5,410 nt of DNA from a virus (lineage: Duplodnaviria > Heunggongvirae > Uroviricota > Caudoviricetes), in the IMG/VR virus record IMGVR_UViG_2534681651_000009. One strand, written 5' to 3'. The position numbers and the translations under genes are program-made. The first letter of the stretch is position 1; the number at the start of each line of letters is the position of its first letter. Shown piece after piece: positions 979-5,410 of this stretch. Below the pieces are notes generated by a model that saw only the letters and a list, made by a program, of their open reading frames with translations, did no database searches and was not told the origin of the DNA.

Positions 979-998
979 AATTGTTATAACCCATATAA

Positions 999-1026
999 GG
1001 GCACCAGAAATGGTGCCTTTTTTATT
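999..1026 (+). terminator. Putative rho-independent terminator between J and lom
   Basis: Perfect 6-bp stem GGCACC (1000-1005) / GGTGCC (1012-1017) with a 6-nt loop, followed by TTTTTTATT (1018-1026). Located 21 nt after the J stop codon. Confidence 0.6.
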
Positions 1027-1700: not shown

Positions 1701-1711
1701 GTGGAGTGGAT

Positions 1712-4114
1712 ATGGCAGCAGTAAAAATCTCAGGTGTGCTGAAAGATGGTGCGGGAAAACCAATACAGAACTGCACTATTCAACTGAAGGCAAAGCGTAA
1801 CAGCACCACGGTACTGGTCAACACAGTGGCCTCTAAAAATCCGGATGAAGCCGGGCGTTACAGCATGGATGTTGAGTATGGCCAGTACAGCGTCACCCTG
1901 CTGGTTGAAGGTTTTCCGCCTTCACATGCCGGAACCATTACCGTCTATGAAGGTTCCAGACCAGGTACGCTGAATGATTTTCTCGGTGCCATGACGGAAG
2001 ATGATGTCATGCCGGAGGCATTGCGTCGTTTTGAGGAAATGGTGGAAGAAGCGGCACGCAACGCTGAAGCCGCCTCTCAGAGCGCAGCGGCGGCAAAGAA
2101 ATCCGAAACTGCAGCGGCATCATCGAAGAACGCGGCGAAAACCTCAGAAACGAATGCAGCTAACAGCGCACAGGCGGCAGCGGCCTCGCAGACTGCATCG
2201 GCAAACTCCGCAACAGCAGCTAAAAAATCAGAAACCAACGCGAAAAATAGCGAGACAGCCGCAACGACGAGCGAAACCAACGCAAAGTCCAGCCAGACGG
2301 CAGCGAAGACCAGCGAAACGAATGCTAAAGCCAGTGAAACTGCAGCAAAAAACAGCCAGGTTTCAGCAGCCCAAAGCGAGAGCGCGGCAGCCGGTTCTGC
2401 GACTTCAGCAGCCGGATCAGCAACTGCTGCGGCTAACAGCCAGAAAGCTGCGAAGACGAGTGAAACTAACGCAAAGTCCAGCCAGACGGCAGCGAAGACC
2501 AGCGAAACGAATGCCAAAGCCAGTGAAACTGTGGCGAAAAGCAGTCAGGATGCAGCGGCTCAAAGCGAGAGTGCCGCAGCCAGTTCTGCAAGCGCGGCGG
2601 CTGCTTCTGCCACTGCATCAGCTAACAGTCAAAAAGCAGCAAAAACCAGTGAAACCAACGCAAAGGTGAGCGAAACAGCGGCTACGAACTCAGCGAAAGC
2701 ATCGGCAGCAAGCCAGACGGCAGCTAAAGCAAGCGAAGATGCAGCCAGAGAGTACGCAAGCCAGGCTGCGGAGCCGTATAAATATGTCTTACAGCCGTTG
2801 CCTGATGTGTGGATACCGTTTAACGATTCACTGGATATGATTACCGGGTTTGCTCCTGGATATAAGAGAATCACAGTTGGTGACGATGTTATTGCATTGC
2901 CGTCTGAAAAGGTTGTTTCATTTACCAGGGCGTCAACTGCAACGTATATAGATAAGTCTGGGTGTTTTGCTGAATCAGCGATAAATGAACCACGTTTTGA
3001 AAAAGATGGTCTGCTCATTGAAGGTCAGAGAACGAATACTTTTTCTTATACGAATACACCAGTATCGTGGAACTATGACACTGCTAACTTAACTATTACC
3101 ACGGGAGTTGATGAGTATGGTTTCAGTTATGGTTTGTTTGGCGTTAAAGAAACATCCACAACTGAAAGGGCGACATTAATTTCTACTGGATATACCAGGG
3201 TTATTTCAGTTTCGGCAAATGAATCAGTTACTTTATCCTGCAGAGTTAAAAAAGTAAGTGGGGATGGTATTATCACGTTGCGTCCAAGAATATCATATGT
3301 TAACGACGATGGCTCAAGTAACACACTGACCGCTGGCGCATATATTGATTGCGAGACTGGCGATATGTTGAGTTATTCTGGAGGTGAGGCGGCAACTTAT
3401 AACATATTCAGAGAGTCTAATGGATGGATTCGTGTTGAGTTTACCTACAAATCACCAGAAGCAAAAAATATGTATGGGCGTTTTGAGTTTGGAGCACATC
3501 AACGATCAATCAAGTCTGGCGATAAATTAATGTTAACAACCCCTCAATTCGAAAAGGGACTAAACGCGTCATCTTTTATCATCACAACAGAGGTCGGTGC
3601 CACGAGAGCAAGTGACCAGGTAATCATACCTATACCTTTCAATTGGGCAACTCCACCAGTTAGTGTTCTCATGGAAGTTAATGTTAATTGGGATTCTGAA
3701 ATGCCTAATTTAGAAGGCTCTGCGCGTTTGCTTAATATCTCAATTACAGGGGCGACGACTGAAGTTTCTGATGAAAGTTATATGTATTTTGGTTTTACCA
3801 ATCGTGGTAAAAGGCTAATTATCACCAATGGCAAAGGAACAAAAACAGAATATAAAGCATATGGGAATAGAGAGAAAAGGAAATTTGTTACTGGCTTTAA
3901 GTTTACAGAAGATAAACAGTTGCAGGTTGTTGTTGATGGAATTTTAGGTGGCAGCTCCCCGTCTCTGCATACATTGCAACGTTATACTGCCGGTAATATT
4001 AATATCGGTGGACAATCATCCAGTGGCAACAGACACCTGTTCGGTCATGTGAAAAATTTACGCATTTGGCATAAAGAATTAACTGAGGCACAAATGGGGG
4101 AGAGTATTAAATGA
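1712..4114 (+). CDS. stf: Side tail fibre (Stf-like) protein, ~800 aa, mosaic: lambda-Stf-type N-terminus, repetitive Ala/Ser/Thr-rich shaft, and a divergent low-GC C-terminal putative receptor-binding region
   Basis: ORF track gives 1706-4114 from a GTG; I prefer ATG 1712 because GGAG at 1703-1706 sits 5 nt upstream and the product then starts MAAVKISGVLKDG..., matching lambda Stf (orf-401) as I recall it. The first ~110 aa resemble lambda Stf. The shaft carries repeated K-[TSK]-SETNAK motifs. From about aa 350 the sequence is unrelated to the Gly/His-rich lambda Stf C-terminus and ends ...HLFGHVKNLRIWHKELTEAQMGESIK, a motif reminiscent of the last strand of LamG/concanavalin-like jelly-roll domains. 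Stop TGA at 4112-4114. Confidence 0.85.
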   Translation: MAAVKISGVLKDGAGKPIQNCTIQLKAKRNSTTVLVNTVASKNPDEAGRYSMDVEYGQYSVTLLVEGFPPSHAGTITVYEGSRPGTLNDFLGAMTEDDVMPEALRRFEEMVEEAARNAEAASQSAAAAKKSETAAASSKNAAKTSETNAANSAQAAAASQTASANSATAAKKSETNAKNSETAATTSETNAKSSQTAAKTSETNAKASETAAKNSQVSAAQSESAAAGSATSAAGSATAAANSQKAAKTSETNAKSSQTAAKTSETNAKASETVAKSSQDAAAQSESAAASSASAAAASATASANSQKAAKTSETNAKVSETAATNSAKASAASQTAAKASEDAAREYASQAAEPYKYVLQPLPDVWIPFNDSLDMITGFAPGYKRITVGDDVIALPSEKVVSFTRASTATYIDKSGCFAESAINEPRFEKDGLLIEGQRTNTFSYTNTPVSWNYDTANLTITTGVDEYGFSYGLFGVKETSTTERATLISTGYTRVISVSANESVTLSCRVKKVSGDGIITLRPRISYVNDDGSSNTLTAGAYIDCETGDMLSYSGGEAATYNIFRESNGWIRVEFTYKSPEAKNMYGRFEFGAHQRSIKSGDKLMLTTPQFEKGLNASSFIITTEVGATRASDQVIIPIPFNWATPPVSVLMEVNVNWDSEMPNLEGSARLLNISITGATTEVSDESYMYFGFTNRGKRLIITNGKGTKTEYKAYGNREKRKFVTGFKFTEDKQLQVVVDGILGGSSPSLHTLQRYTAGNINIGGQSSSGNRHLFGHVKNLRIWHKELTEAQMGESIK
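2279..2656 (+). repeat. In-frame tandem duplication (2 x 189 bp, period 63 codons) inside the fibre shaft, embedded in a larger low-complexity region (~2050-2760)
   Basis: AACGCAAAGTCCAGCCAGACGGCAGCGAAGACCAGCGAAACGAATGC occurs at 2279 and again at 2468 with one mismatch; the rest of each unit is similar but diverged. Protein-level copies are TSETNAKSSQTAAKTSETNAKASETAAK... and ...ASETVAK... A third partial copy begins near 2657. Confidence 0.85.
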
Positions 4115-4392
4115 AAGATTTAACACTCAAATTTGCAGACAGGACCGACTTTTCGACCTTTATGGATAGCATTGGTTATGAAGATGACGAGGTAATGCAG
4201 AACAATGTTCTCATTGATGTGATAGGTAACGTGTACAAAGAAACCGGAGAACTGACTGAAGATGGCGAGCCGGTATGTGTTAAGGAAGACGGATATTTTG
4301 TAAACGTGCGCATCATTAATGATGCAAAAAAATCGTCAATATTCGATAAATACGCGGTTGTTGTTGAGCATCAACTTCGTGGCTGGATGTGA
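4111..4392 (+). CDS. Hypothetical small acidic protein (93 aa), start-stop overlapped with stf; possible fibre accessory or chaperone, or a moron
   Basis: ATG 4111-4113 overlaps the stf stop TGA 4112-4114 (ATGA overlap), implying translational coupling. Product has 19 Asp/Glu against about 11 Lys/Arg and no hydrophobic segment. Low GC, like the stf 3' region. I do not recognise the family. Confidence 0.6.
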   Translation: MKDLTLKFADRTDFSTFMDSIGYEDDEVMQNNVLIDVIGNVYKETGELTEDGEPVCVKEDGYFVNVRIINDAKKSSIFDKYAVVVEHQLRGWM

Positions 4393-4401
4393 GGTAGAGA
4401 A

Positions 4402-5106
4402 ATGGCTACATCGACAGTAATTCCAGGAGATATCACCAAGCTAAAGGGGGATGTCAGTAAAGCTAAGGAAGATATTTCATCAATTAGCGGAAAAGTATCA
4501 ACGCTTCAGACTGATATGGACAGTGCAAAGCAGGATATCAGTACCAGATACACAAAAACAGAAGTGGATAATAAGCTGAAAAACAAAGTGGAAGTGAACG
4601 ATCTGGAAAGCGGTCGTTATGGCGGAGATTTTTATCCACTGACAGGTCGTGAAGCGTTTTATTTATGGGGATTGGGCACAACTACAGCGGCGGCAAATCT
4701 TTATCTTAATCCTGACCCTGCAATTTCGTCTGTGCTGCGGTCAACATCGTCTATCCGCTATAAACATTCAGTAGAGACGATAGATTCAGAGCACGCCGAT
4801 CTCATTTTCAGGATGCGCCCTGTGTGGTACAGGTCGCAATGCGAAAATGACAGGCGTGACTGGGGATTCTATGGATTGATTGCCGAGGAAGTTGGAGAAA
4901 TTGCCCCTCAGTTTGTACACTGGCGACCAGCCAACGAAGATGATGCACCGGAAACCATTTCCAGCAATGGCCTTGTTGCCGAAGGTGTAATGTACGAACG
5001 TCTGGTTGTTCCACTGATTCACCATATCCAGAAGCTGACTGAAAGAGTTGATGAACTTGAGTCAGAATTAAAGTTGTTATCCGTTTCCCGAAGCGATATC
5101 GGATAA
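4402..5106 (+). CDS. Coiled-coil protein with a C-terminal peptidase-S74-like intramolecular chaperone domain (234 aa), free-standing rather than fused to a fibre
   Basis: GAGG at 4391-4394 sits 7 nt upstream of ATG 4402. The N-terminal ~70 aa are heptad-like (KLKGDVSKAKEDISSISGKVSTLQTDMDSAKQDIS). The C-terminal ~120 aa match the S74 chaperone-of-endosialidase pattern as I recall it: S116-S-I-R-Y-K121 (Ser/Lys dyad spacing), MRPVWY, GLIAEEVGEIAPQFV, and YERLVVPLIHHIQKLTERVDELESEL. Stop TAA at 5104-5106. Confidence 0.7.
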   Translation: MATSTVIPGDITKLKGDVSKAKEDISSISGKVSTLQTDMDSAKQDISTRYTKTEVDNKLKNKVEVNDLESGRYGGDFYPLTGREAFYLWGLGTTTAAANLYLNPDPAISSVLRSTSSIRYKHSVETIDSEHADLIFRMRPVWYRSQCENDRRDWGFYGLIAEEVGEIAPQFVHWRPANEDDAPETISSNGLVAEGVMYERLVVPLIHHIQKLTERVDELESELKLLSVSRSDIG

Positions 5107-5112
5107 AGGAGG
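5106..5112 (+). promoter_or_regulatory. Consensus Shine-Dalgarno (AAGGAGG) for the downstream membrane-protein ORF
   Basis: AAGGAGG at 5106-5112 overlaps the preceding stop codon and lies 4 nt upstream of ATG 5117. Confidence 0.7.
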
Positions 5113-5116
5113 CGTA

Positions 5117-5410
5117 ATGGATATAACACCTTTCCTTCATGCACTTTGTGCTGTGGCTGCGCAGGTACTGGTTGGTCTTTTTACCGGAAACTGGGCTTAC
5201 GGGGCGATAGCTGGTTGTACGTTCTTCATTGCGCGTGAACACACCCAGGCAGAATATCGCTGGATTGAAATGTTTGGGCATGGCAAGCGAATGAATATGC
5301 CGTGGTGGGGCGGTTTTGATCCGCGCGCTTGGGATGTGGCAAGCCTGATGGATTTTGCTGTGCCGGTGGTGGCGTGTCTGCTGGTCTGGCTGTTGGTTAA
5401 TCGTGGGTGA
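5117..5410 (+). CDS. Hypothetical small integral membrane protein (97 aa, about two predicted TM helices); possible moron such as a superinfection-exclusion or membrane-acting protein
   Basis: Consensus SD upstream. Hydrophobic stretches at about aa 6-38 (FLHALCAVAAQVLVGLFTGNWAYGAIAGCTFFIA) and 75-95 (VASLMDFAVPVVACLLVWLLV) flank a charged/aromatic loop (EHTQAEYRWIEMFGHGKRMNMPWWGGFDPRAW). GC content returns to roughly 50% or more. Stop TGA at 5408-5410. Family not recognised. Confidence 0.6.
   Translation: MDITPFLHALCAVAAQVLVGLFTGNWAYGAIAGCTFFIAREHTQAEYRWIEMFGHGKRMNMPWWGGFDPRAWDVASLMDFAVPVVACLLVWLLVNRG

What the first reader, a model, noticed from the sequence alone, without database searches (positions are those of the whole stretch)
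4111..5410. Non-canonical three-gene cassette in the position of tfa: coupled acidic protein, free-standing S74 chaperone-domain protein, small membrane protein
In lambda, stf is followed by tfa, a ~190-aa fibre assembly protein. Here no Tfa-like ORF is present. Instead there is a 93-aa acidic ORF start/stop-overlapped with stf, a 234-aa protein whose C-terminal half has the hallmarks of the S74 intramolecular chaperone that is normally fused to the C-terminus of tailspikes and fibres, and a 97-aa membrane protein with a consensus SD. This could be a trans-acting fibre maturation system, a second mini-fibre that decorates the main fibre, or a moron/defence cassette in a known variable spot of lambdoid genomes. 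I cannot tell these apart from sequence alone.
Basis: partly seen in the sequence, partly recalled or inferred. Interest (0 to 1): 0.75.

Follow-up and report, generated by a model that had tools for sequence, protein, structure and literature searches.

The report
Two-part branched side tail fibre module
The three small genes after the side tail fibre gene are not one exotic cassette: two of them are a widespread but untested add-on (a small partner protein and a short second fibre that cuts off its own folding domain), and the third is a small membrane protein found only in temperate phages.

Summary
The three ORFs, the ATGA overlap, the acidic 93-aa protein, the S74 domain and the hydrophobic 97-aa protein are all present. 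No Tfa homologue lies in the window.

The arrangement is common, not unusual. The last 439 aa of Stf form a lectin-like distal module (GTA head-spike-fibre domain plus Laminin_G_3). This module is found in 217 phage records. It is almost always followed by an overlapping orf93 homologue (187 records), in lambdoid, T1-like, 9g-like, Dhillonvirus, T5-like and rV5-like phages.

A second fibre usually follows. Its N-terminus is conserved (MATSTVIPxDITxLK) and its distal part varies. orf234 is the shortest allele: anchor, coiled coil, about 50-aa tip, then an S74 domain with the Ser116/Lys121 dyad intact.

Best reading: a two-component, branched side fibre, as already modelled for the homologous IrisVonRoten Gp22/Gp24. 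orf93 is a dedicated partner of the Stf distal module, either chaperone or joint subunit. It is retained under purifying selection in phages that lack the second fibre.

orf97 is separate. It occurs only in temperate phages, as the last gene after fibre or tailspike genes. Its function is unknown; superinfection exclusion is a guess.

Verdict: a new member of a known kind, of moderate interest.

The parts
1706..2794 (+). stf, tail-attachment N-terminal domain and A-rich repeat shaft (aa 1-363). The likely true start is the ATG at 1712.
   Evidence: PF08400 phage_tail_N, E 1.7e-66. PGAP places the start at the equivalent of window position 1712 in AST215. GC is 0.51-0.56 and AT skew reaches 0.62.
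2795..4114 (+). stf distal module (aa 364-802), beginning PLPDVWIPFNDSL. It is a lectin-like receptor-binding module that ends in a Laminin_G_3 / ConA-like domain.
   Evidence: NF048003 GTA_spike_fiber, 66 bits. PF13385 Laminin_G_3, 27.8 bits against a cut-off of 27.6. Homologous across 11 phages and about 70 prophage loci. Found in 217 phage records. GC drops to 0.37-0.42 at this boundary.
4111..4392 (+). orf93: an acidic 93-aa alpha/beta protein (phrog_1361), translationally coupled to stf. Inferred to be a dedicated partner (chaperone or joint subunit) of the Stf distal module.
   Evidence: ATGA overlap. phrog_1361, E 2.7e-45, function unknown. 187 phage records, always directly after the fibre gene. 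AF2 pLDDT 88, with no informative fold match. Purifying selection in lineages without fib2.
4402..4746 (+). orf234 mature part (aa 1-115): conserved N-terminal anchor MATSTVIPGDITKLKGDVSK (aa 1-20), a predicted long helix / coiled coil (aa 9-47, 52-60), and a short tip region (aa 66-115).
   Evidence: Anchor conserved in lambdoid, Drexlerviridae, Nonagvirus, Dhillonvirus and Tequintavirus second fibres. phrog_4563 match to aa 1-32. AF2 secondary structure.
4747..5106 (+). orf234 S74 / intramolecular chaperone auto-processing domain (aa 116-234). The predicted nucleophile is Ser116 and the predicted base is Lys121. Predicted cleavage is between Thr115 and Ser116.
   Evidence: PF13884. Alignment to DT57C LtfA and MyRF ICA. 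S116 is at least 90% conserved and K121 invariant in 38 homologues. Foldseek hits: 7dc3 at 5.4e-6, 3gud at 0.034; 3gw6 is also listed but is not significant (0.12 or higher).
5117..5410 (+). orf97: a small membrane protein with 2-3 transmembrane segments (phrog_1443). It is the last gene of the late operon, is specific to temperate phages, and is not part of the mobile fibre module.
   Evidence: Hydropathy. phrog_1443, E 3.5e-59, function unknown. Present after stf+orf92 in phage 21, 2E9 and ev243; after the tailspike in the P22-like phage JEP4; after tfa in Halomonas phiHAP-1. Absent from the virulent phages that carry the fibre module.

Best explanation
The region is the distal end of a modular, two-component (branched) side tail fibre, followed by an unrelated terminal membrane-protein gene.

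(1) Stf is a mosaic. A lambda-type tail-attachment domain and repeat shaft are joined at residue 364 to a horizontally mobile 439-aa lectin-like distal module. This is shown by homology and by the GC break.

(2) orf93 is made 1:1 with Stf through the ATGA overlap. It is the dedicated partner of that distal module. I infer that it binds the C-terminal LamG-type domain, either as an assembly chaperone or as a retained joint/cap subunit.

(3) orf234 is a short homotrimeric second fibre.
- Its C-terminal S74 domain nucleates trimerisation and folding of the short tip. It then cleaves itself off at Thr115|Ser116. This is inferred from the conserved Ser/Lys dyad and the fold.
- The mature 115-residue protein docks by its conserved N-terminal 20 residues onto the Stf-distal/orf93 joint.
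- The result is a side fibre with a second, independently exchangeable receptor-binding tip. Docking is inferred from comparative logic and from the published model of the IrisVonRoten homologues.

(4) orf97 is co-transcribed at the end of the late operon. It belongs to the temperate-phage backbone. Its role is unknown; a small inner-membrane superinfection-exclusion type function is my guess, held with low confidence.
For: Pairing of orf93 with the Stf distal module:
- The distal module is in 217 phage records (192 with at least 80% coverage). orf93 is in 187. The two sets have nearly the same taxon breakdown.
- In every locus inspected, orf93 starts at or overlaps the fibre stop codon.
- A remote Aeromonas T5-like phage has a 27%-identical distal module followed by an overlapping 103-aa ORF carrying GYHANVR and a C-terminal W.
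- orf93 stays intact without any second fibre in phage 21, 2E9 and ev243. Between those lineages pS is 0.86-0.88 and pN is 0.25.

Second fibre:
- The N-terminus M[AV]T[SVK]T[VIN]IPxDIxxLK is conserved across five phage groups whose tails are otherwise unrelated. Everything distal to it varies, from 98 to 574 aa.
- In 76 of 77 IMG/VR prophage loci that extend past the orf93 stop, the MA[TI]STVIP gene starts 9 nt after orf93.
- 17 Stf-distal clusters reassort with the 234-aa and 346-aa alleles.
- S74 membership rests on Pfam, sequence and fold evidence, with the dyad conserved.
- Homologues of the short allele (58-62% identical over more than 90% of the query) are in about 35 of the 50 listed phage records, nearly all T1-like coliphages. 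The best cluster has 2928 members. It is therefore not a decayed remnant.

Literature:
- For IrisVonRoten, Gp22 is described as a proximal fibre with a C-terminal galectin-like domain. Gp24 is described as a distal fibre with an intramolecular chaperone that attaches to it (PMC11990801).
- Branched LtfA/LtfB fibres in DT57C have genetic support (PMC4728585).

Operon structure: no promoter-like or terminator-like site on the + strand between 3900 and 5410.

orf97 as separate: it is absent from all virulent carriers of the module. It is present after the P22-like tailspike and after the phiHAP-1 tfa. Its GC (0.53) matches the lambdoid backbone rather than the 0.37-0.44 of the module.
Against: - No physical evidence exists here for any contact.
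- The persistence of orf93 without a second fibre argues that it is not merely an adaptor for orf234.
- The mature part of orf234 is very short (115 aa), and residues 58-90 are modelled with pLDDT below 50. A real receptor-binding tip is therefore unproven.
- BASEL annotators called the short homologues 'putative lateral tail fiber chaperone'.
- The conserved last 40 residues of Stf are the core strands of a LamG fold. Their conservation need not mark an interface.
- Side fibres are dispensable on laboratory hosts, so the viability of phages lacking fib2 proves little.
Confidence: 0.6

Rival explanations
1. orf234 is a trans-acting chaperone. On this reading a free-standing S74 domain protein folds or trimerises Stf (with or without orf93) and is not part of the virion.
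For: Stf lacks both a Tfa and its own S74 domain. The short homologues are annotated 'putative lateral tail fiber chaperone' and 'chaperone of endosialidase' in several phage records. The part of orf234 outside the S74 domain is short.
Against: Known S74/ICA domains act in cis on the segment immediately N-terminal to them (established knowledge of the K1F endosialidase, T5 pb1 and MyRF). orf234 keeps the cis-cleavage dyad. Its N-terminal 20 residues are shared with 346-574-aa proteins that are clearly fibres with receptor-binding domains (PMC11990801). Phage 21, 2E9, ev243 and the rV5-like phages carry the same Stf distal module with no such protein. The Stf C-terminus is a globular LamG-type domain, not a triple beta-helix.
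Confidence: 0.12
2. orf234 is a truncated, non-functional remnant of a longer fibre gene, left behind by recombination at the tail-fibre hot spot.
For: It matches only the last ~240 columns of a 1385-column PHROG profile. The locus is visibly mosaic: there is a GC break at 2795, and a tfa remnant lies just downstream in AST215. Longer alleles (346-574 aa) exist.
Against: Full-length homologues of 221-269 aa start at the same Met and anchor. They are conserved at 56-72% identity in virulent T1-like phages, and the catalytic and tip residues are invariant. The 9-nt coupling to orf93 is invariant. The large protein search found no long protein that contains the whole of orf234.
Confidence: 0.07
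3. The trio, or at least orf97, is a moron or defence cassette. On this reading it is a lysogenic-conversion or superinfection-exclusion unit in the variable spot after the fibre genes, with no role in the virion.
For: orf97 occurs only in temperate phages. It sits in classical moron positions: after the P22-like tailspike next to int, and at the position of P2 Z/fun in phiHAP-1. It is a small membrane protein, like T4 Imm or HK97 gp15 (my own knowledge).
Against: orf93 and orf234 are present in strictly virulent phages, inside their lateral-fibre loci. None of the three has a PADLOC match. No sigma-70-like promoter or terminator sets off orf97; it is tightly coupled to the preceding late gene here and overlaps it in JEP4 and phiHAP-1.
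Confidence: 0.05

Closest known systems
IrisVonRoten (Bas32, T5-like) Gp22 / Gp23 / Gp24 lateral tail fibre locus (Humolli et al. 2025, PMC11990801)
   Same: Directly homologous. The Gp22 distal module is 42.6% identical to Stf 364-802. The 92-aa Gp23 is an orf93 homologue. Gp24 begins MVTKTVIPTDITKLK and ends in an intramolecular chaperone domain. The published model is a proximal fibre with a C-terminal galectin-like domain that carries a distal fibre.
   Different: Gp24 is 574 aa, with two receptor-binding domains (T-shaped). orf234 has only about 95 residues between the anchor and the chaperone domain. The paper does not assign a role to the small protein. The model is a structure prediction, not an experiment.
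DT57C / DT571/2 branched L-shaped tail fibres LtfA-LtfB (Golomidova et al. 2016, PMC4728585; Ayala et al. 2023, PMC10713586)
   Same: Two adjacent fibre genes. The first attaches to the tail and the second attaches to the first. The second fibre ends in an S74 domain. orf234 matches the LtfA chain 8hqz_d by sequence.
   Different: LtfA itself ends in an S74 domain, not a LamG domain. No small ORF lies between ltfA and ltfB. The LtfB N-terminus (MSRPLMPKSGAM...) is unrelated to the MATSTVIP anchor. The joint is therefore of a different type.
Lambda Stf-Tfa, and Mu/P2 fibre-Tfa pairs
   Same: A small gene immediately downstream of the fibre gene and co-expressed with it. The same Stf N-terminal tail-attachment domain (PF08400).
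T5 pb1, K1F endosialidase, GA-1 gp12 and MyRF intramolecular chaperone (S74 / ICA) domains
   Same: Pfam, sequence and fold membership. The Ser-Lys dyad at the start of the domain. The long C-terminal helix.
   Different: Here the domain sits on a free-standing 234-aa protein with a very short passenger, not at the end of a spike or fibre of more than 700 aa.

Membership tests
Peptidase S74 / intramolecular chaperone auto-processing domain (orf234) | Match to the family profile above the curated threshold | tested here: met
   PF13884, 27.1 bits against a cut-off of 22, E 5.2e-6, profile positions 1-57 of 58.
Peptidase S74 / intramolecular chaperone auto-processing domain (orf234) | Catalytic Ser and Lys five residues apart at the N-terminal edge of the domain | tested here: met
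   The motif S116-S-I-R-Y-K121 aligns with the equivalent motif of DT57C LtfA and MyRF. K121 is invariant and S116 at least 90% conserved in 38 homologues.
Peptidase S74 / intramolecular chaperone auto-processing domain (orf234) | Fold of solved intramolecular chaperone domains | tested here: met
   The AF2 model (pLDDT 80-94 over the domain) gives these Foldseek hits: MyRF ICA 7dc3 at E 5.4e-6, GA-1 3gud at E 0.034, and K1F 3gw6 at E 0.12 or higher (not significant).
Peptidase S74 / intramolecular chaperone auto-processing domain (orf234) | Autoproteolytic release after trimer folding | not testable with these tools
   Needs protein expression and mass spectrometry.
Tfa / Caudo_TAP tail fibre assembly proteins (orf93) | Sequence-profile membership | tested here: not met
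   No Pfam, NCBIfam or PHROG Tfa match for orf93, nor for 34 family members at E up to 1.
Tfa / Caudo_TAP tail fibre assembly proteins (orf93) | Fold similarity to solved Tfa structures | tested here: not met
Tfa / Caudo_TAP tail fibre assembly proteins (orf93) | Gene immediately downstream of, and co-expressed with, the fibre gene it serves | tested here: met
   ATGA overlap here, and overlap or abutment in all loci inspected.
Two-component / branched lateral tail fibre (IrisVonRoten type) | First fibre carries the tail-attachment domain; the second lacks it and has its own conserved N-terminal anchor | tested here: met
   PF08400 is found only in Stf. The anchor is conserved across five phage groups.
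Two-component / branched lateral tail fibre (IrisVonRoten type) | Homology of all three parts to the IrisVonRoten Gp22/23/24 locus | tested here: met
   Distal module 42.6% identical. The small protein is 37% identical over its full length. Anchor motif shared.
Two-component / branched lateral tail fibre (IrisVonRoten type) | Physical attachment of the second fibre to the first | not testable with these tools
Needs AF-Multimer, cryo-EM or virion proteomics.
DT57C LtfA/LtfB-type branch joint | LtfB/phiEco32 gp15-type N-terminal docking sequence | tested here: not met
   The LtfB N-terminus is unrelated to that of orf234. The only BLASTP similarity is in the S74 domain.
Moron / anti-phage defence gene (orf97, or the trio) | Match to a known defence family | tested here: not met
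   No PADLOC hit for any of the three proteins.
Moron / anti-phage defence gene (orf97, or the trio) | Own promoter and terminator, separate from the late operon | tested here: not met
   No + strand promoter-like or terminator-like site in 3900-5410. This contrasts with lom, which is flanked by hairpins at 997-1020 and 1674-1695. The scan is consensus-only.
Moron / anti-phage defence gene (orf97, or the trio) | Restricted to temperate phages | tested here: inconclusive
   Met for orf97: lambdoid, P22-like and phiHAP-1-like phages, with only partial weak hits elsewhere. Not met for orf93 or orf234, which occur in virulent phages.
Laminin_G_3 / ConA-like lectin domain (Stf C-terminus) | Profile match above the curated threshold | tested here: met
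   PF13385, 27.8 bits against 27.6 (marginal). NF048003 head-spike-fibre domain, 66 bits against 36.

The most novel reading that the evidence does not exclude
orf93 (phrog_1361) defines a previously unrecognised class of small fibre-joint protein. On this reading it is a retained structural subunit that caps the LamG-type end of lateral fibres in at least six coliphage groups. It would create a universal socket into which interchangeable second fibres plug through a 20-residue N-terminal anchor. That would make it a natural plug-and-play system for adding a second receptor specificity.
Probability: 0.3. Interest if true: 0.6.

Novelty: new member of a known kind. Interest (0 to 1): 0.38.

Why it matters
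Side and lateral fibres decide which O-antigen types a siphovirus can penetrate. They are also the parts that are swapped when lambda-derived particles are retargeted. This module is present in phage 21, in many wild lambdoid phages, and in T1-, T5-, 9g- and rV5-like phages. Partial matches occur in about a third of complete E. coli genomes, yet the small partner protein has no assigned function.

Two questions bear directly on fibre engineering and on host-range prediction from sequence. The first is whether orf93 is a chaperone or a joint. The second is whether the 20-residue anchor is enough to hang a second tip on the fibre.

For genome annotation, the result replaces two 'hypothetical protein' labels with testable roles. 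It also separates orf97 from the fibre genes.

Tried and rejected
1. Tfa membership of orf93. Searches of Pfam, NCBIfam and PHROGs, a 34-member Pfam scan and a PDB profile search found nothing.

3. Rosetta-stone fusions of orf93. A search of 1.84 billion representatives found 83 clusters, all free-standing. The few long hits are repeat proteins (PKD-like, TPR) and are spurious.

4. A pseudo-multimer AF2 run on Stf-distal + linker + orf93 + linker + anchor, with a 15-row paired alignment.

5. Defence hypothesis. PADLOC gave no hits.

6. The idea that orf234 is the cut-off end of a long single-chain fibre. No long homologue contains its N-terminus. The single-chain fibre Gp36 of JakobBernoulli shares only the S74 domain.

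7. Equivalence with the DT57C LtfB anchor. Rejected.

8. A literature search for experimental work on the small protein (BASEL papers, DT57C papers, BF23, rV5 proteomics, the Eligo preprint). None assigns it a role.

9. Homology of the small ORF in Aeromonas AhSzq-1. The evidence is only suggestive (hhalign E 0.009, probability 4.5%).

Full report
**Observation.**
- The window encodes the C-terminus of J (148-978), lom (1048-1647), an 802-aa stf (1706-4114) and then three small ORFs: 4111-4392 (93 aa), 4402-5106 (234 aa) and 5117-5410 (97 aa), all on the + strand.
- The stf stop codon overlaps the orf93 start (ATGA at 4111-4114).
- GAGG lies 7 nt before the orf234 ATG. AGGAGG lies 4 nt before the orf97 ATG.
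- orf93 has pI 4.37. orf97 has two strongly hydrophobic segments and one weaker one.
- orf234 residues 116-172 match Pfam Peptidase_S74 above the gathering score.
- None of the three proteins matches a Tfa family in Pfam, NCBIfam or PHROGs.
- No promoter-like or terminator-like site lies on the + strand between 3900 and 5410. In contrast, lom is bracketed by two terminator-like hairpins.
- The four genes from stf onward therefore read as one tightly coupled late transcription unit.

**How common it is.**
- The same layout is found in isolated lambdoid phages: PhiR49_1, Tritos, HannyBb and 2G7b.
- Parts of the 3400-5410 stretch are matched in 1904 of 5426 complete E. coli genomes; 21 of them have a place that covers at least 80% of it. 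The nearest, strain AST215, is 99.9% identical.
- In 76 of the 77 IMG/VR prophage loci that reach past the orf93 stop, a MA[TI]STVIP... gene starts 9 nt after orf93. It is a 234-aa-class or a 346-aa allele.
- Seventy of the 80 loci are long enough to show a third gene. In 69 of them that gene encodes the 95-99-aa membrane protein, sometimes cut short by the contig end or extended by the start codon my script picked.
- Classical phage 21, and many wild lambda relatives (2E9, ev243), have stf, a 92-aa homologue and the 97-aa gene, but no second fibre.
- PGAP annotates the genes as 'hypothetical protein' and 'tail fiber domain-containing protein'.
- The arrangement is non-canonical only in comparison with lambda itself.

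**The unit that actually travels together.**
- tblastn with orf93 finds 187 phage records. They include lambdoids, Drexlerviridae, Nonagvirus, Dhillonvirus, Tequintavirus and Vequintavirus.
- In every locus I opened, the homologue abuts or overlaps the stop codon of a lateral or side fibre gene.
- Aligning those fibres shows that their last 420-439 residues are homologous in all of them, starting at PLPDVWIPFNDSL (Stf residue 364). Everything upstream is specific to each phage lineage.
- This distal module carries the NCBIfam GTA head-spike-fibre domain. It ends in a Laminin_G_3 / ConA-like lectin domain.
- It is found in 217 phage records, 192 at near-full length, with almost the same taxon breakdown as orf93.
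- In the window, GC falls from about 0.55 to about 0.40 exactly at this boundary. It recovers only within orf234 and orf97.
- A remote version of the module (27% identity) in the Aeromonas T5-like phage AhSzq-1 is also followed by an overlapping 103-aa ORF with the GY.ANVR motif and a C-terminal Trp. Profile comparison supports this homology only weakly.
- Across 1.84 billion representative proteins, the orf93 family has only 83 clusters. All are free-standing proteins of about 85-110 aa, with no real fusions.

**What orf93 is.**
- AF2 gives a confident alpha+beta model (pLDDT 88).
- It is not a Tfa by any sequence test I could run, and no Tfa-named chain appears among the listed fold matches.
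- It persists without a second fibre in two diverged lambdoid lineages. Between them, synonymous sites are saturated (pS 0.86-0.88) while pN is 0.25. It also persists in rV5-like phages.
- Its function is therefore tied to the Stf distal module, not to orf234.
- I infer one of two roles. It may be the module's dedicated assembly chaperone, filling the role that Tfa or an intramolecular chaperone fills elsewhere. Or it may be a retained joint or cap subunit.
- These two roles could not be separated here.

**What orf234 is.**
- Its C-terminal half is an S74 / ICA domain by four tests:
  - Pfam.
  - Sequence alignment to DT57C LtfA and MyRF.
  - Conservation of Ser116 and Lys121 in 38 homologues.
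  - Fold match to MyRF ICA (E 5.4e-6) and the GA-1 intramolecular chaperone (E 0.034), with the K1F chaperone listed below significance (E 0.12 or higher).
- Cleavage would leave a 115-residue mature protein. It consists of a 20-residue N-terminus, a long helix (residues 9-47 and 52-60) and a poorly modelled tip of about 50 residues.
- The N-terminus (M[AV]T[SVK]T[VIN]IPxDIxxLK) is shared with second fibres of 98-574 aa in lambdoids, T1-like, 9g-like, Dhillonvirus and T5-like phages.
- Those phages have unrelated tails. The only components they share are the Stf-type distal module and orf93. The binding partner of the anchor must therefore be one or both of these.
- For the homologous IrisVonRoten locus, Humolli et al. 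model Gp22 as a proximal fibre with a protruding C-terminal galectin-like domain. They model Gp24 as a distal fibre, carrying an intramolecular chaperone, attached to it (PMC11990801). They do not discuss the 92-aa Gp23.
- The short allele is not a wreck. Homologues 58-62% identical over more than 90% of the query are in about 35 of the 50 listed phage records, nearly all T1-like coliphages. The closest cluster has 2928 members. No long protein contains its N-terminus.
- Stf-distal alleles (17 clusters at 85% identity) reassort with the 234-aa and 346-aa alleles. This is expected for two independently exchangeable receptor-binding parts joined by a conserved joint.

**The BASEL label 'putative lateral tail fiber chaperone' for the short homologues.** I rate this reading as unlikely, for three reasons. 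S74 domains are known to act in cis. The anchor is that of bona fide fibres. The same Stf module exists in phages without any such protein.

**What orf97 is.**
- It is absent from every virulent phage that carries the fibre module.
- It is present in lambdoids with or without the second fibre.
- It also lies directly after the tailspike gene of the P22-like phage JEP4, next to int. In Halomonas phiHAP-1 it lies directly after the tfa gene, at the position that Z/fun occupies in P2.
- It has no Pfam, NCBIfam or PADLOC match.
- It has no detectable promoter of its own.
- I treat it as a temperate-phage backbone gene at the end of the late operon. A small inner-membrane exclusion-type function is a guess from analogy (T4 Imm, HK97 gp15; my own knowledge), not a result.

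**History of the locus.** In AST215, a 40-codon 3' fragment of a tfa gene lies 20 nt after orf97. Chromosomal genes follow. This fits replacement of an ancestral stf-distal/tfa pair by the present module.

**Comparison with known systems.**
- The closest is the IrisVonRoten Gp22-24 locus. It is homologous in all three parts, but it has only been modelled, not tested.
- The DT57C LtfA/LtfB branched fibre is the best experimentally supported analogue. Its joint is different: LtfA ends in S74, there is no small ORF between the genes, and the LtfB N-terminus is unrelated.
- Lambda Stf/Tfa shares only the Stf N-terminal domain and the gene position.

**Verdict.** This is a real and very common module. 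Its overall logic (proximal fibre plus a distal fibre with an intramolecular chaperone) is already in the literature. The window adds the shortest allele of the second fibre in a lambdoid prophage. The 93-aa partner family and the 97-aa membrane protein remain functionally open. The module is a new member of a known kind, of moderate interest.

Noticed in passing
window 997-1020 and 1674-1695: lom is bracketed by two terminator-like hairpins followed by T-runs, one after J and one just before stf. This is the classical moron layout. stf and the downstream genes would need antiterminated late transcription to be expressed.
   Followed up: partly
window 2000-2750: The Stf shaft is built of A-rich 'KSETNA / AKTSETNA'-type repeats. 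AT skew is extreme, up to 0.62. Long spurious ORFs appear in other frames and on the minus strand across this stretch.
   Followed up: no
window ~2795: GC drops sharply from about 0.55 to about 0.40 at the PLPDVW boundary of the Stf distal module. It recovers to 0.47-0.53 from mid-orf234 onward. These changes mark the limits of a horizontally acquired block.
   Followed up: partly
window 1706-1714: The mechanical ORF starts at GTG 1706. PGAP in the 99.9% identical genome starts stf at the in-frame ATG equivalent to window 1712, which gives 800 aa.
   Followed up: no
L099 8031-8150 (AST215, 20 nt beyond the window end): A 3' fragment of a tail fibre assembly (tfa) gene lies directly after orf97. 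A diguanylate cyclase gene and chromosomal genes follow. orf97 is therefore effectively the last intact prophage gene on this side.
   Followed up: partly
L013 3989-4288 (phage JEP4); L012 4001-4306 (phiHAP-1): orf97 homologues overlap the stop codon of a P22-like tailspike gene, and of a tail fibre assembly gene in a Halomonas myovirus. The link between this small membrane protein and the last receptor-binding gene of temperate phages recurs and is unexplained.
   Followed up: partly
L102 4095-4406 (Aeromonas phage AhSzq-1): A 103-aa ORF overlaps the stop of a remote (27% identical) Stf-distal-module homologue. It shares the GY.ANVR motif and the C-terminal Trp with the orf93 family. Profile support for the homology is weak.
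   Followed up: partly
phage collection hits: Several records labelled Campylobacter or Listeria phages (for example MG065692, OR847733, OR848352) carry coliphage rV5-like or T5-like fibre loci at high identity. They look like mislabelled or contaminant records.
   Followed up: no
L003 5399-8848; L098 4886-8335: In phage 21 and Lambda_2E9, the sitABCD manganese/iron ABC transporter operon lies immediately downstream of the orf97 gene, on the opposite strand. It appears to be cargo in the same variable spot.
   Followed up: no
L007 4270-5149 (phage KarlBarth): In this Dhillonvirus the second fibre appears split into a 98-aa ORF carrying the anchor and an overlapping 196-aa ORF. This could be a frameshift or a genuine two-piece variant.
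   Followed up: no
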